From IMG/VR virus record IMGVR_UViG_3300044539_000111, positions 50,201 to 114,200 of that record: a stretch of 64,000 bases of DNA. The stretch is one strand, 5' to 3'. The notes under the pieces were generated by a model. The model did no database searches, had not been told where the DNA came from, and worked only from the letters and a program-made list of their open reading frames with translations. This document shows, one piece after another, positions 6,001-63,992 of this stretch; position 1 is the stretch's first letter; each line of letters starts with the position of its first letter. Source of the DNA: a virus. A program made the position numbers and the translations under genes.

Positions 6001-6110
6001 TATGTTTGCTCTTGCATGAGTTTATCATACATGATTTCAGCCAATAAAAAATTTGGCTCCTGCTCAAGAATTTTCTTAAATTCTGGTGAATTTGGATTTA
6101 CACAGCTCAT
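84..6110 (-). CDS. Giant virion cargo/ejection protein (2008 aa) with N-terminal zincin-like metallopeptidase domain
   Basis: HEFAH at 5391-5405, preceded by 'KAFYQAGKVYIV' and followed by 'YMEEAIV'. Hydrophobic helices near the C-terminus (QLVLAKMISMIINMLAMSIG). Last of the three giant genes of the crAss virion-RNAP locus, with a 4-nt overlap with the upstream gene. Confidence 0.8.
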   Translation of the reverse strand: MSCVNPNSPEFKKILEQEPNFLLAEIMYDKLMQEQTYKMYDDTLEFKESTPITKEQELIGQTEDWGFKNPSEVALISDKELSLLIDNPAYNKIEDPVDQQKFNELANAIGEKEAWRDYFETNKVVRPANVVLEKLFKRLEEEEQDFQDTVNESMDLQMPSIDEFINQFEQVVEVENKAKALDVAEKLSKQLNVPYEVITQKELEEKFPNQSYRKAFYQAGKVYIVAGNLTASDVFHEFAHPIVKSMSKQNPELFQKLFDDLAATELGQRIIADLNLDPDLTPGTAAYMEEAIVTSLEAINENEDVAPKSFIQNLFFQIKQFLRKVFGKKIDVSKLNSKTTLADLVKMINYGEEFILDTEFLDKDLMVMFKTDYELLKQQIKDGSAKKTQELMNKFHDVVKLQLSNFKAENDIFKTIEVGLADENREGLLNQAQMILEGLATFGSRNIVIPLDALNITGNTAIDADIISFNNKINSFVQVISTVDEVVDLLNNKLKALAASGVKENNEFDQLFAIMQYNEEWLAKITDWKSEYTTYSLVTDPLTGQQVNPIYDALDELQEKLDAGKRISDSLQIDSVIDVLYDHLNELMTPIKKDYLDQMDSLKKVGSMAAYNKLHAEYYGLTPTDMVEYNRLKNKPEASLTRDEMIKLQELKLATFNSHVISKDALRAKAEGRLGDSHKWNGLFESFMNNQDQIVGGFYSFLMKTFNTIDGNANARRGELLNNLQPLLKAAGYDTHFLGEGKLGKEVGQINRSFKTNNKGESEEFLEWQFLSNFHNYEYDRQLLLDAVKFARQKFNLNKDAKSRDPLKAEFEKAKEALEDFDTKYMNRDYTDEFYQVAARYFKTDSGKLAKAALDDIFDRMRVISENADVNPTNFGKVDALNELWNEYQLLHNIYDFKTGEEKTGISREIAEILTGYRNEISEFYEWEEKENAFELALELLHDELVSKGKHPGSDAYNAVMEEWIKHNTTIAVSENYYINRAALIEERSFLVEPITRINNSFIDVTPMYEQIYGILKPSKDNFNQYNGNDLTPTAQAKIKDIQQTISNLKEQWLNIKGYSPQEMRNFRRIEEYYLENGEFEYDNDQDFYNNFWIDLQKRLANLGIDKDTLDRVREIDKELNGSKLSGLTQQYISNLKAFVETNDAFANIFEDAFKAYDFVDGEFPTSQDIFEAIKDTKFTDALSATSPEFKEWFDRNHYTESVNEFDKVDGHFVGEFTRNRPTAAWQFTMPSEISDYETKSVLGTKIPAEFSPNGYIELNGVPRIPTRAYYRRKVKQEFETAKIERDYVDNNGDLVIATVDNRGNWLPKNLDETDPNAKYVNGTYKKMFSNQRNLWNLLDYLKNKHLDNQKGLDASQKMYLSYPRYRKGDIEEYDKNYFQRKWNRVAETWRGAEDDFEYGIRTNDQQTASYKTLTRPIGGSYKLDISDVSTNIIDKMMDHSYSIEHFKGMRKVNSFANVFENAMTNMYTNPAKTVVDKMLKDSELLEKQDSTQSRRIKNIREIIDKNFKGVTITGFVSGGTDASGGTMFTARVIGGLQRWMSFTSFALDPVKSVRNYVGGKSMMYKKATEGSVYNMKDVALTRGKSASVMGELIAMQYSNKNVSARLQLLDILNAIPGNLKKEIGARGSKTVAQSLFGGSFFYADRKYLSESVPVHQFLAILEHNSFMINGKKTSLDEAIELVDGKIQTVAGVPADMAITYDADGNIKFGKKIQDLMNEHQSFLQKSLGIANEFNEPEVYRSLLGKAAFFLMKFFPGMALDRYQIRTKKGKRGQRRLNYSTRRAELGTYLGIVALANELVSNKGKFWQLDAYSWQAKKGAMQLVLAKMISMIINMLAMSIGFDDDDDGLIDFTWDPNDDGIYSKLKHSTSLPELPLISDARTIKGTNKRFHSENYLKLQTLRLLLVFKKEEDTFFLTNALSTTKDIVTGQSPLFTGGGLATIEDLASSLYATYFTDEPDVYEKAAGPYKFQEKGRDKALNIVLKSMGLSGSLVDAPTTIQRENSDFFN

Positions 6111-9100
6111 TTATAACATGCTTTAAGTTTCTCAATAATTATTTTTTGCACAAGATCATTTCCTTTTGCAAGTGCTTCTTCAATGTATTGTTTTGCATCT
6201 GCTACAGTATGTTCTTTTTGAAGACTTACTGTTAGCTTTTTAGCAAAGTTAACTAATATAGTTTGTTTTTGTTCGGCAGTAAACGGCAGTGTATTAAAAG
6301 TCAAAGAACCCGCTTGTTTTAACTGAGTAATATTATCTTCTAATCTTTTAAGTTCTTCCTGTAAAAATTTATATGTTTCAGGAGCTCTTGTGGGTAATTC
6401 AGCTAAACCAACACCCATTTGTGGAATTATAAGTTTAGAATATTTTCCAGTGTTCCATTCTGCAATTGCTTTGTTTATGTCTTCAGTAATTATTTTTTTA
6501 TTTTCTTGTAACTCTTTATCTGATTTGTATGCTTCTTCGCCTCTTGCAGGTAATTTTTTAGTAGATATACCAATTGCATTTGGTTCATCGCGCATTTCTT
6601 TTGCTTGACCACCTAATCCTTTTCTTATATCATTATCTCCAAATAAATACAAAGTTGCAGGATTTGCTTTAAGTTCACTTCTTAAAATAATTTTATCTGT
6701 TTTTTCAACAACGCCTGTAGATAATTGAGTAGTTGGAGCAGACCAATCATGTTGATTAATTAAATAATCTAATGCTGTAGCATGTGTAGCATAACCTTTT
6801 TCTTGATAATAAAGAATTGAAGATCCTTTAATTTTTCCTGAAGCAATGTCATTAATTATTGCTTGTCTATATTCTTCAGTTGCATTTGCATTACCTAAAT
6901 TTTCTCCAGTTGTCATCCAATGAATAAATTTCATAGTAGAAATTTTACCTGCTTCATCTCTTGACGTTTGTTCATCTTGCCAATCAAATGGATTACCCAA
7001 TGTTAAACCATCTTTGTAGTTTTGCAAAAATGATTTTTTAGAATTACCTCTAAAAGCAATAATCATTGTTTTTAGTTTACCGGTTTTTCTATTCATTTTA
7101 TTATCAAACAAACTGCGCGCTTCAGGTACAATATCATTCCAAAAATTCTTACCTGTGTATGTGGTATTTACATCTAAATCAGATGGTAGAACAACATTTT
7201 CTGATTTAGTTTTATCACCAAGCTGCTCATAAATATTTTGAGCTGCTGATTTTGTTTTAACCGGAACAGGTGTTTGATTAAGTTTAGCACTAGATGTAAG
7301 TACAGCTTGTCTATATTCCATTAAAGTTTCTTCTACTAATGAATCAAACAAAGTTTTACCAACAACAATTCTACCTGATGAAAATTTAAGTTCATTGATG
7401 AATTTAACTCTGAAGCCCACATAATTATTTTTTTTGTAGCTGGTATCTAAATCAGCAATAATTGAGCGTAATTGTTCTTTAACTATCTCTTTTCCATTGT
7501 TGATTAATTCAGACTGAGTAAGCTTTGTAAACCACTCAGGAGTCTTTCTATTTATATCATCATAAAGTATATCCAATAGTTCATTAAACACATTAGAGTT
7601 TGCTGTTCTTGTATCTGTTAGTTTTGGATCATACATTGGATCAGTTACACTTTCAAATGCTTTAGCTGAAATCATTTCATTGTATGTACCTAGCTCTGAA
7701 TAACGTATTACTTTTTTAAATCCAAGACCTTCCAAATGTTTTACAGCCATGTCATCTATACCGGAAGCTGTACCTACAAAGAATGAAGACACACCTGCTT
7801 CTACAGCCTTATCTATTAATGGCTTATGATAAGCATCAAAAGTTTTTTCAACCGCTGTTACAAACTCTTCTTTCTTTTTACCTAAGTATGCATTTTGAGT
7901 AATAGTACTACCAAACACCCAAACTTTATCTGTAGGAACAAATTCAGTTTTTGCTGACTTAGGTTTGGCTAAGGTTCCAGGATGAAAAGATTCTAAAGCT
8001 GCGGCATACGCTGCAGATGATGACTCATACTTAGAATTAAGTGGAGTTGTAGCTTTACCAATTGCTTTAGTGGCAGAGTTTGCCATCGCCTCATCTTTAA
8101 TTGCAAATTTTTCTTTGAAGACATTTGACTGAGCAACTGATAAAAATCCTTTTTTAGCATTTTTAGTTTTGTATCTTAAACTTGGTAAGTCACCTGAATT
8201 ATCAATACCTAAAATAAGCAAAGCCTTATCTAATTCTTTTTGACTTTTTCCTTCCGGTGCAATAAATTTCTGATCTCTAATTACCCATTCCATATTCTGA
8301 ATTGATTCAGCAAATGCTAATGGAGTCATTGATTCATCATTGTAGAAGTACTCAAGTTTTAATTCCTTTTGTTCTGCTGTTATAGCTTTAGCTAAAGGAA
8401 TTTTTGTAATGTTACTTGCTCTTACTTTTGATTCTTTGAGCTTAATATCTTTTGAGAATTTTAGTTTGTCAACAAGATAGTTAGCACCACGAACTTTCAT
8501 ACGCATTCCAGTGCCAACAATCATTCCTTGGTACAAGTTTTTAAACTGATCAATAATTTGTGCATCAATTTCTTTTCTGTTTTCTCTTTGGTCAAAACTT
8601 TTTTGCAATTCATCCAGCACTTGATAAATATACGGAAGACCAATTTGATTTGTTATTGCTTGTTCAAAGTAACTCTGATCAATAATTGGGAGCATGGAAT
8701 ACTTTGAAGCACGGTTAACACCAGACTGCATTATTGCAAGGTGATTTAATTTGTTGATGAAATTTTTAACTTCAGGATGTGGACTGTTTTTAAGTTCTTG
8801 AATATTTTCTCTATAGATAGAAGCCATTTGTGGATCTTTCACCTGCGGAAAATAAATGTTGTTCTTTTTAGCAGATTCATTAAAGTCATATTTTACATCT
8901 CTGAATAAAGCATAGTTTTCTAATTCAGGATAAAGAGCTTTTAAGTTTTGAACAACAGATGCAGCACCAGTAGAAATATCAAACATAGCACTTACATTCC
9001 CTGTGTTATATAAAGCAGCTCTTCCCAATATAATTAGTTTTCCTTGCTCAAAACCTTGATTCATAAATGTTCTCTTTGGTTGATCAAACACTTTGAATTT

Positions 9101-12100
9101 TTCTTTAAACTCATCAACAGTTAAAGTTTCAGCAACCTTAGAAAGATTACTGTATTCAAGTCTAAACTTAACCCATTCTTTTGGTAAAGCGTTGTTAAAG
9201 AATTTTCTGAATGGCATAAACTCCAACATGTTTGCTTCTTTAAAGTAAACATCTGGGCTGTATCTTACTTCACCAGTTTCTTCATTAATGTCCATACCAA
9301 ACTCAACAGATGCATCTTCAACTAAAGTATAGGATTTTCCAACTATGTCAATTTTTTCTGTATCACCTTTGATAAACTTTGTTGGACTTGTAGTATAACT
9401 GTTATCATTATAGACTGCATTTTGATACAAGAACCAAAGAAAGTCATTTTTAAAATCAGCAAGTAATTTTCTTTGATCAACACCCTTTGGTCTTTTTAAA
9501 TCAAGCGATCTTAAAATCAAAGCTTTGTTGTTTCTAAGTTTAAAATACTTAGAAAATAAATCAACAATGAACTCATCATTGTTAAATTTACCAACAGGTG
9601 TATCTTTTAATTTGTCAAACCATGCATCTGGAATCATCTTTTCTGCAATAGGAATTAATTTAAACTCCTCTATTGATTCAATTCTAGCTTGTGCTTCACT
9701 GATGTTTGAAATTTTCTGAGTATCAAATTTTGATACCATTGTAAAATCAGTTAATGCCTGAGCCATTTGTTTTATCTGAAGAAAATGAGATAAGATTTCC
9801 ATATCTCTATAGTTGGGTTCTTGCCCTAATCTATTTGCAATATCTTCATTTGTAAAAGGTTTTGCTGTGTTTGCAATTCTATTAAATGATCCTAAAGAAC
9901 TAGCTTTAGTTACATTTGTTGGATCACTAAAAACATTAGCATATTTTTTACTCAATACTTCCGCTGCTTTTCCAAGCGTGTCAGTTTTACCTTTCTCGTA
10001 ATCTTCAGACAACGCAGCAAATACTCCTTTGTATTCTTCTAGTACTTGATTAAATTCTAAAACTAATGGATTATTCACCATGTTAATAGCTGACGTTACA
10101 TTCATACCTGCCATCACCATAAATAATAATACAGGCGCAGTTTCTTTAGTACCTTGAGCATCAAAAATCCAAGCATCTTTAGCAACATCCACAAAACCAT
10201 TAATAAGCTGAGAAAGAATATCTGAAATTTCTAAGCCGTCCACATTTTTCATTGCGCCTAAAGTGATTGCATTTTTTTCAACATTCAAATTAAATCCAGG
10301 AGTACCTGCATCAGTTACAAAATTTAATTTTTTGTTGCTAAACGTATCAACTGTTTTTAATGCTGCTGCATACTGAGGCGTGTTTGCTTTTCCAAAGTCT
10401 TGAAGAAGCTCTAATGCTTTTACAAACTTAGCTTGATCTTCATTGCTTGTTTCTTGCAAAGTTGCACCAAATGTTGTAAAAAGTGCATAGAATGTAGACG
10501 TAACCGCAGCAATCCCTAATGAATCTTTTCCTACAGAATTTTCCTGATGCTTTAATAAGTTAAACCTGTACTCAAAAATGGAAGTGTTTGAGATTTTTCC
10601 ATTTTTCTGAATCTTGTTGTAGTTTTTCTTAGTCAATTTACCTGCATCTCTGGAAGGTCCTTCGGTATCTTTAGTTGTATTCGGAGTAATCAAATGCTTT
10701 AAGTTATCATTCATCAAAACTCTTTCATTCAACAAATCAAAAAACCTATTCTCTAATCCTTTAACACCTTTGCCATCACGTTCTCTTTGGAAGTTAGCAA
10801 TGTTTACCTTAATGGCATCTACAGCTTCCTGACTCTTCTCTATTTTAGACATGAACTCAAGATAGTTTTCTTTTACAACAGCCATTCTATCAGCCTTGTT
10901 TTTAATTACTGTATCAAAGAAAGCATTTGTTTCACTTTGAGCAAAACTTAATAATGTTAATTTTTGATTTACTTTTTCATCAATTTGTTTTTGTAATTCA
11001 CCATGTAGTTTTTCTTGAAACTCATAATCATAGTCTTTGTTTTCATACACAGATTTCTTTTCTGCATACAAAGCATCAATATCTACTTGAAGATCACTTA
11101 TCTCACCATAAAATGCACCAACGTACTCATTTAAACCTTCTTTTTCAACAAGGTAATCCGTGTATTCTTTCCAGTTTTTTTGTAATGCTGTGTTTGCTTT
11201 TTCTAATTTAGGTTCTTCTTTTTCAATACTCTCTCTTATTTCTTCATAAGTTCGATTTGATGATGAATACTTTACTGCTTCTACAGATCCATTGTAGTTT
11301 CTGATATTCATAAACATCATAAATAACTTATCAATATCAAAGTCAGCTCCAGACTGAGAAACAATTTCAGTAGGTAGTATAATTGTAGGACCGGCAAACT
11401 CAGGTAAAAATTCTGCAACTGTAGCAGCAACTAATGAGTTTGGTCCCTGCGTAGGAATACGCACACCAGGAAGTTTAATTAACTCTCCATATTTATTTTG
11501 CCAGTATGTAGTTTTAATTGCATCATTAAGTCTTTGTAATGATGCGTTATAGTCTAATACTTTTTTACCATTTTCATCTTCAGTGTAAACAGCAATTTTT
11601 TCTCCTTTGACATTTTCTGTGTAAAGTAATTTTTTGAAATCACCTTGAAGTGAAATCTTAACATCCATTCCTTTTACAATAGCTTTCCCATCATTATCCA
11701 AAACCTCATTTCCAAACTCATCTTGTAAGAAATAAAACTTCAAACCATTAGAACCATTCTTCAATAAAGCAGCTTGATTAGAACTTTTAAGCATTTCTTC
11801 AGAAACAGATATTCCGCCAGTCACTTGGAACTTTTCAAACATTGTACCTGCAACTTGAACTAAGGCTTCTCCATTAACTGTAATCCTTCTTAAAGTTTTA
11901 TCTACAAGAGTCACTAACAATTCTTCTAGCTTATCGCTAATCAATGACAAAGACAAGTCATCTATTAATGTTCCATCAGGTTTAATCAAATAGCTAATCT
12001 CCTCTGGCAATACCTCTTTAGACTTTAACTTCTCTCTCAAGTAGTTCGCTAGTTTTGAAGAGTCACCGGTATAAGTTTTTTGACCATTAACTGTATCTTC

Positions 12101-15100
12101 TTTAAGAGCAATGTCTTCCAACAATCTATCTCTTAAAACATTTTGCATTTCATCTAAGGTGCTAGTATAGTCTTGATACCATTGCCATTTTTTAGATTGT
12201 TTTAACTTATCATTTTTAGACAATGCTTCCCATGCATCTTTTTTGTTTTTCTTACCTGTGTATTTAAAGTCAGTAGGAACACCGCCATCTAAAATACCAA
12301 TCAAAGCAATTTTTCTTACTTGAGTTGGTAAAGTAATATGTTCTTTATATCCTTCATCTAAAAAAATTTGACTCTTTAAATACTTGACATGAATTACATT
12401 TGGCGTAAACTGAATATCTACATTAAATTCTCTTTTGCTTGCATCATAAAAATTATCAAAATCAGCAACAATCTCTTTACCTTTTTCTGTTTCAACAACT
12501 TTTACTTTTGAAAGAGAAGATAGTTTAGATCCAGATTCCATTGTCACATAATCAATTCCTTGCTCCATCATTTTTTCATGCATGATTTGCAAAGGAGTTC
12601 CTTCTATTAATGCAGGAATTAATGGCATCAATGAGTACTTATGAAATGCAGAATGACCTAAAGTAATTCCTAAATCTTTTAGTATTTTTTCAGATTTTGG
12701 ATTTGAAACATTACCATAGTACTGAAACTTTCTAACAGGAAATGTAGCAATCATATCCTCTTGTGTCAACTTAGTTCCCGCAAGCATTTTTTGATACATT
12801 TTTTCTTGAGCATCTGACCACTCACCAATTGAATCATTTAGTATTCGGTATGCATCAAATGATAACCATCCCTGGCCATCAGCTTCTTTCATGTTATTAT
12901 AATCAGCCGTGTCTACACCTAAAAGTTTTTGATAATGATCTATGTAAATAGAATTAGATTTAGCTTCTTTTATAATAGCTGTTTGTAAAAAACCAGTGTA
13001 CTCATAACTTAAAGTAATAGATGGTTTTTCTTTGTTATGTTTTTTAGCAAACCCGTAAGCATTGTACTGTGTGGAATTTATGTACTTCATCCAAACTCCA
13101 TCATGTCTAAAGATTTTACCAGTAGAAATTAGTCCAGCAATACGTTTGTGAAAAGCTTCCCCCTCTACATCGTGTACTGTTACATCTCCTAAAAACAAAG
13201 CATTGTAGTTCAAGTTTTGAATAAAGTTGTTCATCAAAAACACCTTAATCATTTTTTCTTTTACTGCTTCTTTGTTTTCAGCTTCAGATAACTCAGGATC
13301 TGATTCTATTTCTTTAGCGTATGATTCAAATAAACTGTCACCAATAACTAACTTACCACCTAACTCATCATTTAACTTTGTAGTTTCCTTTTTAAAGTAA
13401 TCAATCAATGCATTTTCAACTCTAGTTTTTAACTCTGGAGATAAAGCATCAATTGAAAAACTTCCTTTTCCTTTAGCATTTTCTGATTCAGAAATTACAG
13501 AGTTGATGTCAAATGCCAACAAGTCTTTTTTCAAGTTTTTATCAAAGCTTTCATCAAAAATTTTATCAAATACAAACCAGTCGCCACCACGGTTTAATTG
13601 AGCTACATCTATAGCAAGATCTTCAGGTTTAATCTCACCTGACAAAATCATTGATTGCAATTTTTTTATTTGCTGTATTCTTATAAGTTCTGCAGCTAAA
13701 TGATTTTTAAATTCTGTAAAAAGAATTTCTCCTTTGTATCCTTCAGCAAAAATCTTTTCAGATTCATTTATATTGATAAGAAGATTGGTATTCTTTCTTC
13801 TCCCGTCACTTTTAACAGCCGGTACATAAACAGTCATTGATGTTGACTTAGCTTCTGTACGCATGATTTCCTGTTTACCTTCAAGAGTTAAATGAAAATC
13901 AGAAATAAACTTTGATTTTTCATCAGTTTCCATTGAAGCAACACCGTTGTCATACTCTAAAGTAACGCGCTTGTCTGTAACATCTCCAGTTTCAGCATTG
14001 ATGTCTTCAACCCAGTATTCTTCTTTAGAAATAAGTTTTGATCCAGATAAATTTTCAGTGCTAATTTTAATTGAGTAATCTCTATTACCTCTTTTTGTTT
14101 TAGAATGGACAGCTGGATCTAATTGGAACATGTCAATCAGCCACCTAGAAGCAGCAGCTTGAGGATTTGTGTATGGATTTAAATACTCCAATCCTTTTGT
14201 GTTGATTATATCATTGATGTGATCAGCATTATTTAAAGCTGCAGTTAGGCTTAACAAACTTGAATTAAATGATTTCTCACTTTGTAAATCACCATTAGCA
14301 TTATAACTTGAAAAGTTTGTGTAGTCATTTGAGTAAACATAATGCAACTCACGAAGTTGTGTTAAGTAACCTGTAAGACTTGGTTGTGTTTGCAGTTTAC
14401 CAGTTTCATCAAAATACATAAACGGTTTAAACACATCTGAAAGACTTGTTATAAACTTTGCATTTGGATCTAAAGATGGAACTTTGTCTTCATTAAAAAC
14501 AACTTTACTCATTCTATTTTTTAACGCCTCAACAATATAAGTTGAGATTGCAGGACTTGTTCCTAAAGTTGAATCGCCTTCAAATAAAACTTGTCTAACA
14601 TCAGAGTCATCTACTAAATCAATACCAAGGGCCGCAAACAACAAGTAAGGATCAGCAATAGCTTTTACATAAGGAGTCCTGGAATATCGACTACTCTTAG
14701 ATCTGATTGGATCATATTGAGATTTTAATAATGTTTTACCACCTCCCTCAATTAAAGCATAATAAAGATCTTCGTCATTTGCTAAATCATCTAACAGTGA
14801 TTCAATGTCAAACACAGGATTACCTTCTTTGTTTGTTGATGAATACTCTCCTGTTAGTGCCATAGTTTTAAAATTAGCACCCCACTGTCTTTCTATTTGA
14901 ATACTTTGAGATTGAGATTTTCCAGACTTAGAAGTTAACTTGACAGTTCTTTCATCATCAATGTTTGTAATGTCTTCTCTTTCTAAAATAAATTCTCTCA
15001 ATAAAACATCTGCTTTATTAAATGACTGCCAGAAATCAGACCATTGACGGTGTTCCATTGAAGTCATAGTGTCTGCAAATTCTAACTCTGATATATCACC

Positions 15101-18100
15101 TAACCTTCTAAAGACTTGATCTATTTCTTTGTCATTCTTTGCCGCATCTTTTAATGCAGTTGCCATATCCATAGCATCCGGCATATTGCGCAAAAGCTTA
15201 GCCACTTTTGCAATAGCATTTTTAACAGGAAGAACTTCCTTAAATCCTAATGCATTCAATTGCACCACACCTTTACCTTGTTCAGAATAAGCAAAGATAG
15301 AATCTAAAAGAGCTTTAGTTCCTTTTTCAATTGTGTCATCAAATAACTGATCGTTACCAGTTCTATCCCACATTGGAACATAAATATCTTCTTCTAAAGC
15401 CTTAGCTTCATATTCATCCTGATATACTTCTTTACCTAAAACTAAATTACTGTAAGACTTTAAGAACAATGGAAGCAATGTTCTTTCAACTTGCTGTCCA
15501 TCATTTTGTTTTTCTTTAATAGCAACATTAAGGTCTGTTAGTTTTCCAAAATTATCAGGCTTAATTGCTTTTTCAAGTAGTTCTTTTTGGAATTTCAATT
15601 TAGTGCTTTCACTTAAATCTCTTGCAGATTTATCTTTTATATCTGCAATAGCAGCAATCTTAACATTTGTTTCAGCAAGTTTTTGTTTAAACCGAGCTAA
15701 AATATATTTACTCATAAGGTTTAGCATCTCTGGATTAGAAACTAAAGTAAATACACCTGCTCCACTTCTAATTGATGTTTCAGAAATGTTTTCTAACTGA
15801 GTAGCCAACTCAATATATTCCTGAGATGATTCAGGATACTGTGTCATTTTTGCTAATAATGTTGTAGCATTTTTTCTATCAGTTGCATTTTGAGAAACAT
15901 TCAAACCTTGTGTAACAAAATCAGACATTACTGATTTCATACTAGACATTACATCATGCATTTCCTCTAATGAAAATGTATCACCTGTTGTAGTTTTTAT
16001 TTCAGATGACATCCATTTAGTTTCTGCATTTTGTATGTTAAACATGTCCGCAGTAAAATCACCTTTAAACAATCTTGTAAACATTGCATCAGTAATACCT
16101 TGTGTTTTGTTAAAAGCTTTTGCTTCAGCAAAACTCATGTTTCCAAATACATTCTTTAAAAGAGAAAGCAATTTTTGAAAAAATGCCATTACTTTGTTGT
16201 TGCTAAATGTAGTTTTTTTACCACCAGCCATAGCAAACTCTCTAAACTTTTCAGCTAAGAACTCTTCTAGTTCTAAATTTGTTGCATCATCGTAAGGCAC
16301 AACTTTAGATACACCCTCTACAGTTACTGTAAAGTATCCTGGAGTTTTTCTAAGTGTGTCATATATTTCTTTTCTTTCCGCAGGTGATAATATTCCATCA
16401 AAATAAGCATGGAACGCTTCATGGTACAAATCTGTAGGTGAAGATCCAAGATATAAATTAATAGAGTTGCCAATAAAGTTTGCCAAATAGTTTGGACCAA
16501 ACTCACTGACTTTGTTTAAGATATTAACATTGACTACATTCTTTAATGGGCTCTTTTCCCACCACTCAGACACACTTTTGTCTTGTTCTTTTGTAGATTG
16601 AAGTAAGTTATTTCTTTGTGGAACTGACCGCCATTTGACATTATCAAAATCACTAGAATTAAAATCAGATTCTTCATTGTCTATCATAGCATCATACCCA
16701 TCTTTAAAAGCAAGGTAAGAGCCTAATCCAATTAATTTATTTTCAGCTGTAGGTACTATGGTTGTATAACCATGTTTTATTACATGTGAACCAATTGAAA
16801 CTTGTTCACCTAAAATAATAACACCATTTTCTAATTTAGTTGGAACTATATAAATTAAATCATTCATAGAAGCACCTGTTCTATTTGCAAAAGATCTTCT
16901 TAATCCAGCAGCCTCAAATAAGTTACCATCAGCATCTGTATAGTATTCACCCAAATAAGCTTCCTCTAATGATTTTTTTGGAGTAGGTTCTTCAGCATTT
17001 AATTTACGGTTTACAGGTTTTCCATATTTTGCATTAGTCCATTCTTTTAATTTTTCTAAAGTCAAAGAAGATGCTTCAATTGGTTTTTGGTTTAAAAAAC
17101 GCAACATCATTACTTTATCTTTGCCTGTCCCTTCATAGAAATATTCAAATGGATTATTAAGCCATGTTTTACCTTTTAATAAATTAGAACTATCAATAAA
17201 AAAATGAATAAGATCTTTTCTTAACCCATTAGCATTTTTATCTGAAACAACTCTGTCTTTAATTTTAAGTTCAGGAGTAGTTAAAATATGGTGCAACAAT
17301 TCTAACTCATCTTCTGTTAAAGTTGATAAAGGTTTTCCAAAAACTCTTTCTTCTTTGTTAGTATTTTGTACAGCTAATACAGGATAAAATTGATTTGTTT
17401 GAGGTGATTGTTTTAATGTAGTAAGCCCATCAGCCGCAGATGTACTAATATTTGATACTTCTGAAAGTGGTGTTTGAATATTTCTATTTAAAGCAATTAT
17501 ACCAATTGAACTTCTTGATAAGTCAATATTCATAAACACAGTAGTACCTGCTTTAGCTTTAGTTAAAGATGCTTCAAAAGATTTAACAAATTTATCAACT
17601 TGTGCTTTTGCTTGTGCTTTTGCTTGTAACTCAACTGTTCCTGATTGTATCAAACTTTGCGCAATCATTCTTTCTTGATACTGTAAAGCTTCTCTATTTG
17701 TTTTTACAGTAAATGCAACAAACTTACCATCCTTATTTAAGTTACCATCAGAATCAAAAGTTGCTACATTGTTGTTAGAATCAATTAAAATTAATACTGG
17801 CAAGTTTGGATCTGTAGTTCCTGTAGTGTTATCAAAGTTTTGTTCACTTTGAATTGCACCAAGTGTAGTAATTTTAAATTTTAAAGCTGCCGCATTTTGC
17901 TTGTTAAGAATATTCCGAGCAACCTTAAACTCCAATTCTTTTCTTGGATCTAAAATGTTTTCAGCATAACTATTTAAAATTGGATTATAAATGGCCTCCT
18001 GATTACTAGTCTTAGCCAACTCCATAGATACTGCTTCAAATCTATCCAGCGGATCTTCTTCTGTAACAACAACATCACTGTTGTTTCCAATAAATCCTCC

Positions 18101-18448
18101 AAATCTATCAATAACATTTTGGAATTTGTTTGTGCTTTCATCTTCAGCCGCATTCATCACTTGTAAAGCAAGATCTCTAAAAAGAGGTAGTGACTTTGCA
18201 TTTGTTAATTTTGGATTGTCAGAGGTGTGTTTTAATACAATCTGAGGAATAATGCTCATGTGTTGAAGCACCAATTCTTTATTTCTATCTGCGGTTAATC
18301 CATTTCCACTAAAAACAGTTAAAGCATCATTGAACAATTCATTCAATAATGCTTCACCTGATTTGTCATTTGTTAACCTCTCGCCTAATTTTCTATTTAT
18401 GAATGAACCAAATAATTTAATTGACTCCGGAGTAATACAAATATTCAT
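6107..18448 (-). CDS. Virion-packaged single-chain DNA-dependent RNA polymerase (crAss-type, 4113 aa) with zincin domain and C-terminal accessory domains
   Basis: Catalytic DxDxD motif SGADFDIDK (DFDID at 11330-11344), preceded by RIPTQGPNS. Further conserved-looking blocks include KRIAGLISTG, ADGQGWL and SQLINGFVDVAKD. HEAFH zincin motif at 16409-16423. Matches the phi14:2 gp66-type RNAP architecture. Confidence 0.92.
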   Translation of the reverse strand: MNICITPESIKLFGSFINRKLGERLTNDKSGEALLNELFNDALTVFSGNGLTADRNKELVLQHMSIIPQIVLKHTSDNPKLTNAKSLPLFRDLALQVMNAAEDESTNKFQNVIDRFGGFIGNNSDVVVTEEDPLDRFEAVSMELAKTSNQEAIYNPILNSYAENILDPRKELEFKVARNILNKQNAAALKFKITTLGAIQSEQNFDNTTGTTDPNLPVLILIDSNNNVATFDSDGNLNKDGKFVAFTVKTNREALQYQERMIAQSLIQSGTVELQAKAQAKAQVDKFVKSFEASLTKAKAGTTVFMNIDLSRSSIGIIALNRNIQTPLSEVSNISTSAADGLTTLKQSPQTNQFYPVLAVQNTNKEERVFGKPLSTLTEDELELLHHILTTPELKIKDRVVSDKNANGLRKDLIHFFIDSSNLLKGKTWLNNPFEYFYEGTGKDKVMMLRFLNQKPIEASSLTLEKLKEWTNAKYGKPVNRKLNAEEPTPKKSLEEAYLGEYYTDADGNLFEAAGLRRSFANRTGASMNDLIYIVPTKLENGVIILGEQVSIGSHVIKHGYTTIVPTAENKLIGLGSYLAFKDGYDAMIDNEESDFNSSDFDNVKWRSVPQRNNLLQSTKEQDKSVSEWWEKSPLKNVVNVNILNKVSEFGPNYLANFIGNSINLYLGSSPTDLYHEAFHAYFDGILSPAERKEIYDTLRKTPGYFTVTVEGVSKVVPYDDATNLELEEFLAEKFREFAMAGGKKTTFSNNKVMAFFQKLLSLLKNVFGNMSFAEAKAFNKTQGITDAMFTRLFKGDFTADMFNIQNAETKWMSSEIKTTTGDTFSLEEMHDVMSSMKSVMSDFVTQGLNVSQNATDRKNATTLLAKMTQYPESSQEYIELATQLENISETSIRSGAGVFTLVSNPEMLNLMSKYILARFKQKLAETNVKIAAIADIKDKSARDLSESTKLKFQKELLEKAIKPDNFGKLTDLNVAIKEKQNDGQQVERTLLPLFLKSYSNLVLGKEVYQDEYEAKALEEDIYVPMWDRTGNDQLFDDTIEKGTKALLDSIFAYSEQGKGVVQLNALGFKEVLPVKNAIAKVAKLLRNMPDAMDMATALKDAAKNDKEIDQVFRRLGDISELEFADTMTSMEHRQWSDFWQSFNKADVLLREFILEREDITNIDDERTVKLTSKSGKSQSQSIQIERQWGANFKTMALTGEYSSTNKEGNPVFDIESLLDDLANDEDLYYALIEGGGKTLLKSQYDPIRSKSSRYSRTPYVKAIADPYLLFAALGIDLVDDSDVRQVLFEGDSTLGTSPAISTYIVEALKNRMSKVVFNEDKVPSLDPNAKFITSLSDVFKPFMYFDETGKLQTQPSLTGYLTQLRELHYVYSNDYTNFSSYNANGDLQSEKSFNSSLLSLTAALNNADHINDIINTKGLEYLNPYTNPQAAASRWLIDMFQLDPAVHSKTKRGNRDYSIKISTENLSGSKLISKEEYWVEDINAETGDVTDKRVTLEYDNGVASMETDEKSKFISDFHLTLEGKQEIMRTEAKSTSMTVYVPAVKSDGRRKNTNLLININESEKIFAEGYKGEILFTEFKNHLAAELIRIQQIKKLQSMILSGEIKPEDLAIDVAQLNRGGDWFVFDKIFDESFDKNLKKDLLAFDINSVISESENAKGKGSFSIDALSPELKTRVENALIDYFKKETTKLNDELGGKLVIGDSLFESYAKEIESDPELSEAENKEAVKEKMIKVFLMNNFIQNLNYNALFLGDVTVHDVEGEAFHKRIAGLISTGKIFRHDGVWMKYINSTQYNAYGFAKKHNKEKPSITLSYEYTGFLQTAIIKEAKSNSIYIDHYQKLLGVDTADYNNMKEADGQGWLSFDAYRILNDSIGEWSDAQEKMYQKMLAGTKLTQEDMIATFPVRKFQYYGNVSNPKSEKILKDLGITLGHSAFHKYSLMPLIPALIEGTPLQIMHEKMMEQGIDYVTMESGSKLSSLSKVKVVETEKGKEIVADFDNFYDASKREFNVDIQFTPNVIHVKYLKSQIFLDEGYKEHITLPTQVRKIALIGILDGGVPTDFKYTGKKNKKDAWEALSKNDKLKQSKKWQWYQDYTSTLDEMQNVLRDRLLEDIALKEDTVNGQKTYTGDSSKLANYLREKLKSKEVLPEEISYLIKPDGTLIDDLSLSLISDKLEELLVTLVDKTLRRITVNGEALVQVAGTMFEKFQVTGGISVSEEMLKSSNQAALLKNGSNGLKFYFLQDEFGNEVLDNDGKAIVKGMDVKISLQGDFKKLLYTENVKGEKIAVYTEDENGKKVLDYNASLQRLNDAIKTTYWQNKYGELIKLPGVRIPTQGPNSLVAATVAEFLPEFAGPTIILPTEIVSQSGADFDIDKLFMMFMNIRNYNGSVEAVKYSSSNRTYEEIRESIEKEEPKLEKANTALQKNWKEYTDYLVEKEGLNEYVGAFYGEISDLQVDIDALYAEKKSVYENKDYDYEFQEKLHGELQKQIDEKVNQKLTLLSFAQSETNAFFDTVIKNKADRMAVVKENYLEFMSKIEKSQEAVDAIKVNIANFQRERDGKGVKGLENRFFDLLNERVLMNDNLKHLITPNTTKDTEGPSRDAGKLTKKNYNKIQKNGKISNTSIFEYRFNLLKHQENSVGKDSLGIAAVTSTFYALFTTFGATLQETSNEDQAKFVKALELLQDFGKANTPQYAAALKTVDTFSNKKLNFVTDAGTPGFNLNVEKNAITLGAMKNVDGLEISDILSQLINGFVDVAKDAWIFDAQGTKETAPVLLFMVMAGMNVTSAINMVNNPLVLEFNQVLEEYKGVFAALSEDYEKGKTDTLGKAAEVLSKKYANVFSDPTNVTKASSLGSFNRIANTAKPFTNEDIANRLGQEPNYRDMEILSHFLQIKQMAQALTDFTMVSKFDTQKISNISEAQARIESIEEFKLIPIAEKMIPDAWFDKLKDTPVGKFNNDEFIVDLFSKYFKLRNNKALILRSLDLKRPKGVDQRKLLADFKNDFLWFLYQNAVYNDNSYTTSPTKFIKGDTEKIDIVGKSYTLVEDASVEFGMDINEETGEVRYSPDVYFKEANMLEFMPFRKFFNNALPKEWVKFRLEYSNLSKVAETLTVDEFKEKFKVFDQPKRTFMNQGFEQGKLIILGRAALYNTGNVSAMFDISTGAASVVQNLKALYPELENYALFRDVKYDFNESAKKNNIYFPQVKDPQMASIYRENIQELKNSPHPEVKNFINKLNHLAIMQSGVNRASKYSMLPIIDQSYFEQAITNQIGLPYIYQVLDELQKSFDQRENRKEIDAQIIDQFKNLYQGMIVGTGMRMKVRGANYLVDKLKFSKDIKLKESKVRASNITKIPLAKAITAEQKELKLEYFYNDESMTPLAFAESIQNMEWVIRDQKFIAPEGKSQKELDKALLILGIDNSGDLPSLRYKTKNAKKGFLSVAQSNVFKEKFAIKDEAMANSATKAIGKATTPLNSKYESSSAAYAAALESFHPGTLAKPKSAKTEFVPTDKVWVFGSTITQNAYLGKKKEEFVTAVEKTFDAYHKPLIDKAVEAGVSSFFVGTASGIDDMAVKHLEGLGFKKVIRYSELGTYNEMISAKAFESVTDPMYDPKLTDTRTANSNVFNELLDILYDDINRKTPEWFTKLTQSELINNGKEIVKEQLRSIIADLDTSYKKNNYVGFRVKFINELKFSSGRIVVGKTLFDSLVEETLMEYRQAVLTSSAKLNQTPVPVKTKSAAQNIYEQLGDKTKSENVVLPSDLDVNTTYTGKNFWNDIVPEARSLFDNKMNRKTGKLKTMIIAFRGNSKKSFLQNYKDGLTLGNPFDWQDEQTSRDEAGKISTMKFIHWMTTGENLGNANATEEYRQAIINDIASGKIKGSSILYYQEKGYATHATALDYLINQHDWSAPTTQLSTGVVEKTDKIILRSELKANPATLYLFGDNDIRKGLGGQAKEMRDEPNAIGISTKKLPARGEEAYKSDKELQENKKIITEDINKAIAEWNTGKYSKLIIPQMGVGLAELPTRAPETYKFLQEELKRLEDNITQLKQAGSLTFNTLPFTAEQKQTILVNFAKKLTVSLQKEHTVADAKQYIEEALAKGNDLVQKIIIEKLKACYK

Positions 18449-58986: not shown

Positions 58987-60603
58987 TTATAATGAACCTC
59001 CCGTGATTGGGTTTCTCATAACAATTTTCAACACTTTAGTAGGATCTTCTACTTTGATTGCAGGCATTGCCTGAGTCATGTAAACTTGGTATCCGTTGAA
59101 GTTACCTGAAGAAGCAAACCCTTGAGTTCTTCCCATGTAATCCATAGAACCATTTACATATCTCCAAACAAGATCTTTGTTCCAAGCACATTTCAACAAT
59201 TTGATATTGTCTTGACCGTTCTCAGTAATATCAAAGATGATAAATGAGTAAGAAGACAAACGGAAACCATCAATGATTGGGTTTTCAATCTCGTTATTTT
59301 GCAAGTTGTCAAACGCAGGGTTTAAAACAAACTTCACATTTGCCAAGAAAGGAATTGTGTAGCTTGTGAAAGAGAAACCGTAAGACAAGTCCATTCCTGA
59401 ACCTTTTACTGCTTCCAATTCTTTTGCGTTCATTACCAATCCTGATGCAAAAGCCTCACGCTTGATTGCTTCATTGATAATACGCATACCACCCATTCCA
59501 GTTTGAACAATCAATTCACGCTTTGGATCTGGTCCTTGGAAATCAACTTTACCATTGTAGAAGTTGAAAATCTCAGAACGGAAGATGTCAAGACGGAAAT
59601 CAGATTTGTTGTAAACATGCTTGTAAGACAAGTCTAATTGTTTCCACAAACCAACTGACAAACGAAGATCATCTGGACCATCTTGCTTGATACGTCCACC
59701 TTTACCCCACATAAGGTATGTTTCAATATCATAAGCAATTTTAGAAAGGTGAGCTGCTTCCAACTTAGTGATGAAAGAACGAACCAAGTTTCCATTGTCC
59801 ATTGCTTTTTTCACATAACCTTGTCCTTTAGCAGCAACCATTCCTTCCAATGTATTGATAGATGGATCCATTGACGTATCAAAGTTTTTCCAAATTTCAG
59901 TTACAGGAATTGAACCGTCAGCTTGCATACCACCTTTCTCCATCAACTTCACTTTAGATGAAATTGTATAGTGAATATGTGCATCTGCATTACCAACATA
60001 GTTGTAGAACTCACGAGTTGTGTGAGTCATAGAAAGATCTGAGTAACGCTCACCGTACTCACCACGCGCAGAACCTACACGGAAGAAGTAAGTGTTGTTT
60101 GTCAAGAAACGGTTATCAAACGTTGCAGCTGAATCATTGTTCGGCATTTGCACTGTGTAGATATAACCATCACCCATGTCTAAGATGTCCTCATCTGTAA
60201 CATAAAGTTCTTTTCCATTGAATTTGTCATAAGTGATGATGTCACCATGTCCAAATACACGCTTGTTCAATTTAATCTTGAACGGAGTGCCATCTACACC
60301 TTTGATAGTGTTTGACGGATCAAGATCTTCCATTATGAAAGGAAGTTCTTCAGATACAGGTGTTGACCACTTGTATTCACCTCTTGGGTGGTTTACCTCA
60401 ATAACATTCTTTCCGCTAAAAGAAGACATTTGATACAAAGGCATCTCCAACTTTTTAACTTGCGCCCAAAGTTCAATTGGTCCCAAATCATCTGGTTGTG
60501 CGTCTTTCATCAAATTCATCAAGTGGTAAGAATCCACATGAGAGCTTGCTGTGTAATAGTTGTCCCGAAGGAACATCCCATTATTTAAAACTGGTGTACT
60601 CAT
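58987..60603 (-). CDS. Major capsid protein (crAss-like, HK97 fold; 538 aa)
   Basis: Gene order portal-scaffold-MCP. Motifs 'GSARGEYGERYS', 'ETYLMWGKGG', 'GLWKQL', 'VQTGMGG', 'FVLNPAFDN' and 'IKVEDPTK'. Elevated C-ending codon use is consistent with high expression. Confidence 0.9.
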   Translation of the reverse strand: MSTPVLNNGMFLRDNYYTASSHVDSYHLMNLMKDAQPDDLGPIELWAQVKKLEMPLYQMSSFSGKNVIEVNHPRGEYKWSTPVSEELPFIMEDLDPSNTIKGVDGTPFKIKLNKRVFGHGDIITYDKFNGKELYVTDEDILDMGDGYIYTVQMPNNDSAATFDNRFLTNNTYFFRVGSARGEYGERYSDLSMTHTTREFYNYVGNADAHIHYTISSKVKLMEKGGMQADGSIPVTEIWKNFDTSMDPSINTLEGMVAAKGQGYVKKAMDNGNLVRSFITKLEAAHLSKIAYDIETYLMWGKGGRIKQDGPDDLRLSVGLWKQLDLSYKHVYNKSDFRLDIFRSEIFNFYNGKVDFQGPDPKRELIVQTGMGGMRIINEAIKREAFASGLVMNAKELEAVKGSGMDLSYGFSFTSYTIPFLANVKFVLNPAFDNLQNNEIENPIIDGFRLSSYSFIIFDITENGQDNIKLLKCAWNKDLVWRYVNGSMDYMGRTQGFASSGNFNGYQVYMTQAMPAIKVEDPTKVLKIVMRNPITGGSL

Positions 60604-62042: not shown

Positions 62043-63992
62043 TTACTTGCTAGGTTTTTTCTGATCAAACTTGTTTTTATTTTCCTGAGCAATAGCTAAT
62101 TCAACTTGTTTGTTTCTTGATTCATTTACCATTTTTTCTCTGTCCAAGTCTAACTTTTGCTGATGAACATCTTTTTTATTAGATTCTTTTTCTCTGTTAA
62201 AGTTCATAGTATCAGCATATTGTTCAGATTCTCTAACATCTTTCAATACATCTTGGAAATCAGATTGATTATTTTTATTGACATCTTGCATAGCACCATA
62301 ACCAGCTGCTTTGATTTCTGCTTCAAGTAATCTAGCTCTACGATCTTTTTCTTTCTCTCTAGACACATGATCCATTTCCATTTGTTTTTCTTGTTGTCTA
62401 GCTTGAATTTCAGCTTCTTGTTGTTGTTGTGCAGCTTGCATTTCTTCTTTTCTTCTTTCTTCAGATTTTGTTTCAATCCCTTTAAGAATAGTATTCAATG
62501 AGCCAATTGAGTCAGATTGTATTAACTCTCCTAAATCATAAACAGAAGCACCAGTTGTATTGTTACTCATGAACACTTGTTTGAGTTGTTCAAGTGTATT
62601 TCTATTAGTAGCGTTGGTTAAACAGAATACATTTAAATCAACTAATAGTAAATCTGTACCATTGATCTCAAAGTTTGTTCTCTCATCTGGAGAAATCATT
62701 CCTTGCAATCTAACTGATGGTTTTGTTGAATGATAAAACTGTGCTAGATCTGTTCTCATTTGATGCACACGCGGCATTAAATGATCACTGTGCTGAATAA
62801 AGTAAGTTTCAGTTTGAGCATAAGAACCAGACATTGCTTGTTCAATACCTGTTGCGGTATTTATTTGTCCAAGCTGTTGTCCCATTCGTTGTGGATTTAA
62901 ACCAACAACTTCCATGGCCTGTGCTTTAAAGTAATTAGCCAATTGGATTCTAGACATCAATCTGTTTGATTGCTCAAGATTTAAAACTTGATAATGCTGA
63001 AAGTTTGTAGCACTTTCCGTATTAGCAATACTTGGATCTAATGGAAGCATTGAAAAATCCTTCATGGCTACATACGCTTTTGCAAGATTGTTTTTACCCC
63101 AGTCTTCACCCATTGAATGTTTTGGAATTGCATTCTGATCAAGTACAATTACTGAGCCTAATTCATCCACAAGAATATCTGCAATTTGATTGTTGCAAAT
63201 GTTATATCCAATTTGTGAGGGCTTTAGCAAATCAACAAATGATGTTGACTTGGTATTCCTATCTGAAAACACTCTTCCTTCAATTGGAAGTTTAGCTCCA
63301 TACATTGTTTTATCACCACGGAATTGGAATTTTAATGGTCCTGGTTTATCCCTGTCAATTCCTAAATAGATTGGATCAAAATCAGTATCAGTTTCTGTAT
63401 TGAAAATAGTTCTGTTATTTCCAATTTTTACTCCACCCCATACTTGGTTAATCCAAAACCAATCAATGTGATCACCAAAGATTAAATTATCTCCAGTTTC
63501 TTTTTTCTCAAATACTTTGTTGTAAATAGGTTTTGTAGTTACTACATAGTTCTCATCTATAATTTCTGTAATAACTGCACCATCTTCATCAATTTTAGTC
63601 AATTGACCAACGCGTCTTTGAGTTTTCCAATAAGATGTAGACACGCGCAACAATTCAACAGTATGTAAATTCCCAGCATGTTCACTTTGTCCAACAATGT
63701 AGGATACAACATCATGAGGATCATGTGCGTTTTCTACAAATGCTAAATGTCTACGCATATCTACACCAGACCTTCTGTTAGATTCATAAGTATCATCCGT
63801 ATTGTACAATGAACCGTCATTTGGAATACCATCAATCATGTGTCTAGCTGAACGTGCTGGATGTAATAGCTCAAGTGATTCTAATTGTTCAGCAGTCATC
63901 AAGTAACCATACTTATCTACAACATCTGCAATAGTAAGCATGTCAATCCATCCCGCCCAGTTACCTTGAGAAATGTAATGTACATTTCTCAA
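62043..63992 (-). CDS. Portal protein (crAss-like), 5'-truncated
   Basis: 'LRVSTSYWKTQRRVG', 'WFWINQVWGGVKIG', 'KLPIEG', 'SFVDLLKPSQIGYNI', 'GLNPQRMGQ' and a coiled-coil tail. The TTG 'start' lies inside a fold-back, so the true N-terminus is missing. Confidence 0.9.
   Translation of the reverse strand: MRNVHYISQGNWAGWIDMLTIADVVDKYGYLMTAEQLESLELLHPARSARHMIDGIPNDGSLYNTDDTYESNRRSGVDMRRHLAFVENAHDPHDVVSYIVGQSEHAGNLHTVELLRVSTSYWKTQRRVGQLTKIDEDGAVITEIIDENYVVTTKPIYNKVFEKKETGDNLIFGDHIDWFWINQVWGGVKIGNNRTIFNTETDTDFDPIYLGIDRDKPGPLKFQFRGDKTMYGAKLPIEGRVFSDRNTKSTSFVDLLKPSQIGYNICNNQIADILVDELGSVIVLDQNAIPKHSMGEDWGKNNLAKAYVAMKDFSMLPLDPSIANTESATNFQHYQVLNLEQSNRLMSRIQLANYFKAQAMEVVGLNPQRMGQQLGQINTATGIEQAMSGSYAQTETYFIQHSDHLMPRVHQMRTDLAQFYHSTKPSVRLQGMISPDERTNFEINGTDLLLVDLNVFCLTNATNRNTLEQLKQVFMSNNTTGASVYDLGELIQSDSIGSLNTILKGIETKSEERRKEEMQAAQQQQEAEIQARQQEKQMEMDHVSREKEKDRRARLLEAEIKAAGYGAMQDVNKNNQSDFQDVLKDVRESEQYADTMNFNREKESNKKDVHQQKLDLDREKMVNESRNKQVELAIAQENKNKFDQKKPSK

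What the first reader, a model, noticed from the sequence alone, without database searches (positions are those of the whole stretch)
6340..8110. Virion RNA polymerase carries a C-terminal train of putative nucleotide/ADP-ribose-handling domains
Seen: beyond the polymerase core, the 4113 aa protein ends in three compact globular-looking units separated by linkers. (a) About 7715-8110: 'KDEAMANSATKAIG…KVWVFGS…FFVGTASGIDDMAVKHL'. (b) About 6755-7065: 'IIAFRG…LGNPFDW…KFIHWM…ILYY…THATALDYLIN'. (c) About 6340-6690: 'LYLFGDND…GGQAKEMR.EPNAIGISTKK…IIPQMGVGLAEL'. From family knowledge, (a) resembles SLOG/YspA-type nucleotide-binding folds, (b) DUF4326 and (c) a macro-domain-like phage family. Inference: because the RNAP is injected with the DNA, these would be pre-made effectors present before any phage gene is expressed. 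They are candidates for countering NAD+/ADP-ribose or nucleotide-signal defences.
Basis: partly seen in the sequence, partly recalled or inferred. Interest (0 to 1): 0.7.

Follow-up and report, generated by a model that had tools for sequence, protein, structure and literature searches.

The report
Swappable ADP-ribose cassette on virion polymerase
The giant RNA polymerase protein that this crAss-like phage probably injects with its DNA ends in a slot that related phages fill with different small enzyme domains, here a cysteine-less DUF4326 relative and a macro-like DUF7831 domain, which are most likely ready-made tools against ADP-ribose-based host defences; this is a variant of a known phage strategy.

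Summary
All quoted strings lie at the stated coordinates in one intact 4113-aa ORF (6107-18448, minus strand) carrying the crAss-type DFDID polymerase motif, and AlphaFold models the tail as compact domains (pLDDT about 91).

- **Unit (b)** is a homologue of DUF4326 (hhalign 97%, controls 2% or less). It lacks all the family's cysteines and is missed by the Pfam model.
- **Unit (a)** is a Rossmann-like domain with a DprA/YspA-like motif. SLOG membership could not be shown. It belongs to a constant part of the protein, not to the cassette.

In 170 giant relatives the C-terminus is a combinatorial cassette of b, c, NADAR, AlkB and cpYpsA-SLOG. NADAR sits exactly where DUF7831 sits here. A phage about 93% identical in DNA loses all similarity only across aa 3725-4085.

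In bacterial genomes, free-standing DUF7831 genes lie next to YspA-type SLOG and canonical DUF4326 genes.

Injection and enzymatic activity are inferred, not shown. This is a new variant of the known "polyvalent protein" strategy, and this scan has already noted similar cassettes on other crAss-like phages.

The parts
6107..18448 (-). 4113-aa giant protein: zincin-type HExxH region, two-barrel virion RNA polymerase core and C-terminal accessory region. Its stop overlaps the start of the next giant gene (ATGA).
16409..16423 (-). HEAFH (aa 676-680), a zincin-like metalloprotease motif conserved in relatives (consensus YHExFHA)
   Evidence: A zincin domain is described for phi14:2 gp65 in preprint 10.1101/2020.03.07.982082.
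11330..11344 (-). DFDID catalytic motif of the crAss-type RNA polymerase (aa 2369-2373)
7649..8128 (-). Unit A (aa 3441-3600): Rossmann-like alpha/beta domain with conserved KDEAMAN-STKAIG, VWVFGS and VGTASGID motifs. It is constant in this lineage.
7265..7648 (-). L1 (aa 3601-3728): helical domain modelled as one rigid unit with A. Its last helix ends at the upstream cassette breakpoint.
6193..7276 (-). Swapped cassette (aa 3725-4085): no DNA similarity to the relative L007, which is otherwise 92-93% identical
7079..7264 (-). N-terminal helical extension that travels with unit B in closer relatives (aa 3729-3790)
6734..7078 (-). Unit B (aa 3791-3905): cysteine-less DUF4326-family domain. Conserved residues are GNPF, W3844, YY3880-81, E3883 and (S/T)H3888-89.
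6344..6706 (-). Unit C (aa 3915-4035): DUF7831 domain with a macro-like predicted fold, carrying the FGDN-x6-GGQA and IPxxGxGLA loops
6110..6343 (-). T (aa 4036-4113): helical C-terminal tail, always at the extreme C-terminus of relatives, ending in ...LKxCYK with an invariant Cys

Best explanation
The last ~670 residues of this crAss-like phage's fused protease-polymerase cargo protein consist of a constant frame and, inside it, a recombinationally exchangeable slot. The frame is a Rossmann-like domain A with helical L1 upstream, and the last helices of tail T downstream. In this phage the slot holds a cysteine-less DUF4326-family domain followed by a DUF7831 domain of macro-like fold. Related phages fill the same slot with NADAR, AlkB, cpYpsA-SLOG or unknown modules. 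These families belong to the NAD+/ADP-ribose and nucleic-acid-repair domain network described for DNA viruses. Because the carrier is packaged and translocated with the DNA in studied crAss-like phages, the domains would be in the cell before any phage gene is expressed. The most likely job is to bind and remove ADP-ribose adducts, or to destroy ADP-ribose-derived signals, produced by host defences. DUF7831 would be the ADP-ribose-handling module and the DUF4326-like domain an accessory that binds or processes the ribose-phosphate end. The modules are possibly released by the protein's own zincin protease. Shown here: domain identities and folds, cassette swapping, and the recurrent SLOG-DUF7831-DUF4326 association. 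Inferred: packaging of this region, catalysis, substrates, the counter-defence role and any proteolytic release.
Confidence: 0.6

Rival explanations
1. The cassette serves the phage's own nucleic acids rather than fighting immunity. On this reading it is a first-minute repair and processing kit for the incoming DNA and the early transcripts made by the attached polymerase. Examples are removal of alkyl or ADP-ribosyl lesions, clean-up of ADP-ribose-1''-phosphate-type by-products of RNA repair, and handling of NAD-capped RNA.
For: AlkB is one of the commonest modules in the slot, present in 23 of 170 giants. PIF1-type helicase and RNase H domains occur in relatives. Bacterial DUF7831 islands carry SSB and RNase H genes. 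In phiCbK and the Rhizobium phage, free-standing DUF7831 lies among DNA-metabolism genes. PMC9503650 links Macro and NADAR to RNA-repair by-products.
Against: The high turnover of the slot between phages that are 93% identical is more typical of arms-race genes than of housekeeping repair. The two readings overlap, because damage inflicted by a host defence system is still damage to be repaired.
Confidence: 0.2
2. The domains are ligand sensors or non-catalytic binding modules that regulate the polymerase or the ejection complex. They might, for example, sense NAD+/ADP-ribose-type nucleotides to time early transcription, rather than acting as enzymes on host molecules.
For: B has lost the whole Cys cluster of DUF4326. 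A is constant and rigidly joined to L1 next to the polymerase body. PMC9503650 proposes sensor roles for viral SLOG domains fused to nucleic-acid enzymes.
Against: B and C also exist as free-standing small proteins and at many positions in unrelated giants, which argues for autonomous function. Both keep strictly invariant polar residues of the kind seen in active sites. NADAR and AlkB, which replace them, are enzymes.
Confidence: 0.12
3. The C-terminal region is not delivered. It would be cleaved off before or during packaging, or act only in the producing cell late in infection, for example as an assembly or packaging aid with T as an anchor.
For: The protein carries a conserved zincin motif. 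Proteolytic maturation of crAss cargo proteins has been proposed. T is a conserved terminal helix bundle with an invariant Cys, which could be purely structural.
Against: Enzyme-type modules with a free-standing life elsewhere are unlikely to be packaging aids. Polyvalent proteins of other phages are delivered (PMC5512222).
Confidence: 0.06

Closest known systems
Polyvalent proteins of phages and conjugative elements (Iyer, Burroughs, Anand, de Souza, Aravind 2017, PMC5512222)
   Same: A giant multidomain protein of a mobile element, with a variable array of enzyme domains that is delivered with the DNA to act at once. A zincin-type protease motif is present.
   Different: The carrier is the crAss-type two-barrel virion RNA polymerase. 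The array is built from NAD+/ADP-ribose-processing and repair families (DUF4326-like, DUF7831, NADAR, AlkB, SLOG), none of which that paper mentions (0 occurrences of SLOG, NADAR, AlkB or crAss). The variable part sits in a defined slot between conserved flanks.
[quoted passage not shown] 2021, PMC7824862; 2022, PMC9503650)
   Same: The same families and the same kind of fusion. The prediction is also the same: they are deployed early against ADP-ribose-derived signals or adducts, and some are encoded among virion genes.
   Different: There they are mostly free-standing or small fusion proteins of jumbo phages and NCLDVs. Here they are appended to the packaged polymerase. The DUF4326 relative is cysteine-less, and the macro position is held by DUF7831, a family without published function (no paper found).
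phi14:2 gp66 and crAss001 gp47/49/50 virion RNA polymerase cargo proteins (10.1101/2020.03.07.982082; PMC10172136)
   Same: The DFDID catalytic motif, the position after the tail and cargo genes, the neighbouring giant genes, and the zincin domain of gp65 type.
   Different: gp66 has 2180 aa. No part of the 674-aa tail other than DUF7831 found a match in any deposited phage genome, and all of those DUF7831 matches lay in non-crAss phages.
Macrodomains (DarG, TARG1, viral nsP3 macro, MacroD)
   Same: They are the best structural matches of the DUF7831 model. Glycine-rich loops sit at equivalent positions. DUF7831 is interchangeable with NADAR, the other ADP-ribose remover.
   Different: There is no sequence-profile similarity. 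Only four strands are predicted instead of six or seven. The catalytic residues of the known macro classes cannot be mapped.
Anti-Avs ORF83, a phage SLOG/LOG-like protein (10.1101/2025.06.06.658234)
   Same: It is the experimental precedent that a small nucleotide-handling Rossmann domain of this network is an anti-defence protein, and its NCLDV homologues are fused to DUF4326.
   Different: Unit A here could not be shown to be a SLOG domain, and no Avs link was tested.

Membership tests
DUF7831 (Pfam PF25176), unit C | Match to the family HMM above the gathering score | tested here: met
   121.7 bits against a cut-off of 27, E 2e-35, profile positions 4-117 of 118
Macrodomain superfamily, unit C | Three-layer alpha/beta/alpha macro fold | tested here: inconclusive
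   [not shown]
Macrodomain superfamily, unit C | Sequence or profile similarity to Macro (PF01661) | tested here: not met
   No Pfam hit at E up to 10. hhalign against 29 Macro sequences gives under 1%.
Macrodomain superfamily, unit C | ADP-ribose binding or hydrolysis | not testable with these tools
   The only indication is a motif resemblance: FGDN-x6-GGQA and IPxxGxGLA against N-x6-GG and G-x-[FY]-G (the macro motifs are from general knowledge).
DUF4326 (Pfam PF14216), unit B | Match to the family HMM above the gathering score | tested here: not met
   No hit at E up to 10 for the piece, none for 10 small homologues, and none in the whole genome
DUF4326 (Pfam PF14216), unit B | Homology detectable by profile-profile comparison, with the GNPF motif and helices in register | tested here: met
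   hhalign 96-97%, P 5e-11 to 6e-9, 69-103 columns aligned. The controls (units A and C, 30 column shuffles, reversed profile) give 2% or less.
DUF4326 (Pfam PF14216), unit B | The C-x-C...C-H cysteine cluster of canonical members | tested here: not met
   Canonical sequences carry CxCxPxxCH. B has YY...(S/T)H, with no Cys at these columns in 161 sequences.
SLOG superfamily (YspA/YAcAr, DprA, LOG), unit A | Match to any SLOG-clan HMM or profile | tested here: inconclusive
   No Pfam or NCBIfam hit. hhalign against YAcAr gives 4-52%, against DprA 2.6% and against cpYpsA 0.3%, with alignment only around VGTASGID. The YAcAr-versus-DprA positive control itself reached only 44%. ESM feature neighbours at 0.81-0.82 are all of the SLOG clan, which is only a weak lead.
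SLOG superfamily, unit A | SLOG-type Rossmannoid fold | tested here: inconclusive
   [not shown]
Polyvalent proteins | Giant phage protein with several enzyme-type domains whose combination varies between relatives | tested here: met
Polyvalent proteins | Packaged in the virion and delivered into the host | not testable with these tools
   Inferred from homologues in phi14:2 and crAss001 and from the gene's position in the structural and cargo block
crAss-type virion RNA polymerase | DFDxD catalytic motif and similarity to phi14:2 gp66 | tested here: met
   DFDID at aa 2369. tblastn to g066 gives 27% identity in two pieces, and there are further hits to annotated crAss RNAPs.

The most novel reading that the evidence does not exclude
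DUF7831, the DUF4326 family (canonical or cysteine-less) and a YspA-type SLOG domain form one conserved, so far undescribed three-part pathway. It would dismantle an ADP-ribose-derived immune signal or adduct. The same trio is encoded as an operon in SSB-bearing islands of bacterial mobile elements and is loaded onto the injected polymerase of crAss-like phages. The polymerase gene would have evolved a dedicated exchange slot, with conserved recombination flanks at the end of L1 and in the last helices of T, for swapping such counter-defence modules.
Probability: 0.25. Interest if true: 0.75.

Novelty: new variant of a known kind. Interest (0 to 1): 0.55.

Why it matters
crAss-like phages are among the most abundant viruses known, and how they survive the first minutes in a defended cell is open. 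A polymerase that carries an exchangeable set of ADP-ribose and nucleic-acid-repair domains offers a concrete, testable answer. It also points to which host defences matter for these phages. It gives two families of unknown function a testable hypothesis: DUF7831 as a minimal macro-like ADP-ribose module, and a cysteine-less DUF4326 clade. Finally, it shows a clean within-gene cassette exchange between near-identical genomes, which could be used to find further counter-defence modules, such as the ~260-300-aa unknown module in L007 and many other relatives.

Tried and rejected
**Sequence libraries**
- Pfam, PHROGs and NCBIfam scans of units A, L1, B and T gave no usable hit.
- phmmer of the tail, and a DUF7831 profile, against PDB sequences found nothing meaningful.
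- tblastn of the tail against 50,697 phage records matched only unit C.

**Structure searches**
- Foldseek against the PDB gave no hit at E 0.001 or better for either model.
- The second-look VIA searches added nothing.
- The ESM Atlas gave only weak leads for A and none for B.

**Profile comparisons (hhalign)**
- A against YAcAr, DprA and cpYpsA was low. This test lacked power, because known SLOG families did not link to each other either.
- C against Macro and C against NADAR were both under 1%.
- An apparent 50% match of B to cpYpsA probably arose because my cpYpsA seed overlapped the end of B in P0054.

**Tools and searches that fell short**
Giant proteins were therefore aligned whole.
- Single-protein search for related loci found only 6 and 1 close loci.
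- The word-index search with a canonical DUF4326 protein returned only 7 homologues.
- The 553-aa protein that follows DUF7831 in bacterial islands stayed unidentified.
- Complex prediction, sequencing-run look-up and read laying were not used, because no binding or expression claim is made.

Full report
**What is there.**
The window carries one co-directional minus-strand block. It runs from a portal gene (62043-63992) and a major head gene (58987-60603) through virion structural genes. It ends in three giant ORFs of 3130, 4113 and 2008 aa. The finding lies in the 4113-aa ORF (6107-18448), which is open under the standard bacterial code. Its stop overlaps the start of the next giant gene as ATGA.

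The protein has the DFDID motif at aa 2369. This is the catalytic motif of the phi14:2 gp66 virion RNA polymerase. Its core gives tblastn hits to phi14:2 g066 and to annotated crAss-like RNAPs. It also has a conserved HExxH at aa 676, like the zincin domain described for the neighbouring gp65 of phi14:2. The record is an IMG/VR virus contig of 114.2 kb, estimated 96% complete.

**Check of the observation.**
All twelve quoted strings are present at the stated coordinates. AlphaFold2 with alignments of relatives gives confident models:
- aa 3441-3740: pLDDT 91.9, pTM 0.86;
- aa 3729-4113: pLDDT 90.7.

The three units are real folded domains, but the "linkers" are structured too:
- a helical domain L1 (aa 3601-3728) forms one rigid body with unit A;
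- unit B has a helical N-terminal extension;
- a three-helix tail T (aa 4036-4113) closes the protein.

**Unit C.**
It is Pfam DUF7831 (E 2e-35, 121.7 bits). No paper in the library mentions this family.

Distribution:
- Free-standing proteins of about 130 aa are common in metagenomes and in alphaproteobacterial phages such as phiCbK, where the gene follows rIIA/rIIB.
- Predicted structures of DUF7831 proteins from giant eukaryotic viruses and from gut crAss-like phages match the model at E down to 1e-10.

Fold:
- In a search of the model against 48,161 PDB representatives, the C domain's best matches are macrodomains.
- The invariant residues of 31 family members form FGDN-x6-GGQA and G-x-G-L loops. 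Macrodomains have their N-x6-GG and G-x-[FY]-G phosphate-binding loops at these positions (macro motifs from general knowledge).

Against this:
- Foldseek found nothing at E 0.001 or better in the PDB.
- Profile comparison with canonical Macro failed.

I rate "macro-like ADP-ribose module" at about 0.7.

**Unit B.**
No library recognises it. An exhaustive HMMER search found it in about 160 proteins, both giant proteins and small free-standing ones.

I collected canonical DUF4326 proteins from phiCbK, from Rhizobium phage RHph_TM30, and seven homologues from the protein-collection search. Profile-profile comparison with them gave 96-97% probability (P 5e-11 to 6e-9). GNPF, the following helices and the C-terminal strand-helix are in register. 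Units A and C, 30 column-shuffled profiles and a reversed profile all gave 2% or less. Foldseek also lists a phage DUF4326 protein (probability 0.85) and several dual-specificity phosphatases, though weakly.

Where canonical members have CxC...CH, unit B has YY...(S/T)H, with no cysteine in 161 sequences. It is therefore a sister clade of DUF4326 with different or lost chemistry.

**Unit A.**
The model is a Rossmann-like alpha/beta domain. Its conserved VWVFGS and VGTASGID motifs look like the GSR and SGGAxGxD motifs of YAcAr and DprA sequences fetched here.

The tests did not confirm SLOG membership:
- hhalign gave 2-52%, aligned only at the motif, and my positive control between two SLOG families reached only 44%;
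- the ESM neighbours, all of the SLOG clan, scored only 0.81-0.82.

Genuine SLOG (cpYpsA) domains do occur in relatives, but at other positions.

**Comparative anatomy.**
The first search returned 113 giant relatives of 2300-7135 aa. Mapping the modules on 170 giants gave the following.
- 153 of the 170 share the polymerase core or its motif.
- In the closest clade, A-L1 and T are constant.
- What lies between them varies: B-C (this phage), B-NADAR, B-AlkB, B alone, C-AlkB, AlkB, NADAR, B-cpYpsA-AlkB, or unknown modules of about 260 aa.
- Pfam places NADAR of P0005 at aa 3923-4040, between B and T. That is exactly the place of DUF7831 here.
- More distant giants carry the same modules in other orders, together with PIF1-type helicase, zeta-toxin/kinase and RNase H domains.

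The cleanest evidence is at the DNA level, against the IMG/VR contig behind L007:

| Region of this protein | DNA identity to L007 |
|---|---|
| aa 2444-3724 | 93.2% |
| aa 3725-4085 (1084 nt here, 892 nt there) | no detectable similarity |
| aa 4086 into the next gene | 92.3% |

The upstream breakpoint coincides with the end of the last L1 helix. The module in L007 has no Pfam match.

**Independent association.**
A DUF7831 profile found 123 loci in bacterial and archaeal genomes, and the best 80 were kept. They come from Hymenobacter, many Acidobacteria, Alphaproteobacteria and Dehalococcoidia. In the acidobacterial loci the gene lies in a conserved island:
- a YAcAr/YspA-type SLOG gene upstream in 12 loci;
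- SSB;
- DUF7831;
- a canonical DUF4326 gene 91 nt downstream in 9 loci;
- an unknown 553-aa protein in 37 loci;
- a second SSB, and RNase H.

[quoted passage not shown] A phage SLOG protein, ORF83, is listed as an experimentally found evader of type III Avs, and its giant-virus homologues end in DUF4326.

**How it most likely works.**
Homologous polymerase proteins are in virions and act before host-independent transcription starts. Anything fused to them reaches the cytoplasm with the DNA. The slot's contents are ADP-ribose-handling or nucleic-acid-repair families, they turn over between near-identical phages, and DUF7831 is the only ADP-ribose-type domain in this genome.

The best reading is a pre-made, exchangeable counter-defence or repair kit. 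DUF7831 would bind or remove ADP-ribose, B would be an accessory module, and release by the zincin protease is possible. Packaging of this region, catalysis and targets are all inferred.

**Rivals.**
Three alternatives remain open and are scored in the rival explanations:
- a self-repair or RNA-processing role;
- a sensor or regulatory role;
- non-delivery of the region.

**Novelty.**
The strategy (polyvalent proteins, PMC5512222) and the domain network are known. I found no paper in the library describing this cassette on crAss-type polymerases. Yutin et al. only call the transcription-block proteins "large, multidomain".

Earlier notes of this scan describe the same theme on other crAss-like genomes, including a cysteine-less DUF4326 relative, so within the scan this is a repeat.

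New here are:
- the macro-like reading of DUF7831 and its positional exchange with NADAR;
- the sharp DNA breakpoints;
- the bacterial SLOG-DUF7831-DUF4326 island.

Noticed in passing
window 6110-6130 (aa 4107-4113) and 18437-18448 (aa 1-4): All 34 relatives that carry the T tail end in ...LKxCYK-like sequences with a Cys in the last six residues. The N-terminus also keeps a Cys (consensus MxICITP).
   Followed up: partly
window 16409-16423 (aa 676-680): A conserved HEAFH zincin-type motif lies upstream of the polymerase core. This protein therefore looks like a fusion of the phi14:2 gp65-type protease with the gp66-type polymerase.
   Followed up: partly
L026, L028, L033, L063, L069, L070, L089 and about 30 more acidobacterial loci: A conserved island of YAcAr(SLOG) - SSB - DUF7831 - DUF4326 - unknown 553-aa protein - SSB - RNase H, often next to a Fic or a sigma-70-like gene, with several copies per genome. 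It may be a mobile-element establishment or anti-defence island. The 553-aa protein has no Pfam, PHROG or PDB match.
   Followed up: partly
L007:3853-4743: The module that replaces B-C in a 93%-identical phage is a 297-aa stretch with no Pfam match. Many relatives have a gap of similar size (about 256-275 aa) between L1 and T.
   Followed up: partly
BFVD hits of model m7b046435b498: DUF7831 proteins occur in giant eukaryotic viruses (Hyperionvirus, Tupanvirus, Yasminevirus) and in giant proteins of human-gut crAss-like phages (cr130_1, cr131_1, cr272_1).
   Followed up: no
[not shown]
   Followed up: no
L009 (phiCbK, 98469-98918 of JX163858.1): The free-standing DUF7831 gene of phiCbK lies directly after rIIA and rIIB and before a putative N-glycosylase/DNA lyase gene. 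phiCbK and Rhizobium phage RHph_TM30 also encode canonical DUF4326 proteins elsewhere in their genomes.
   Followed up: partly
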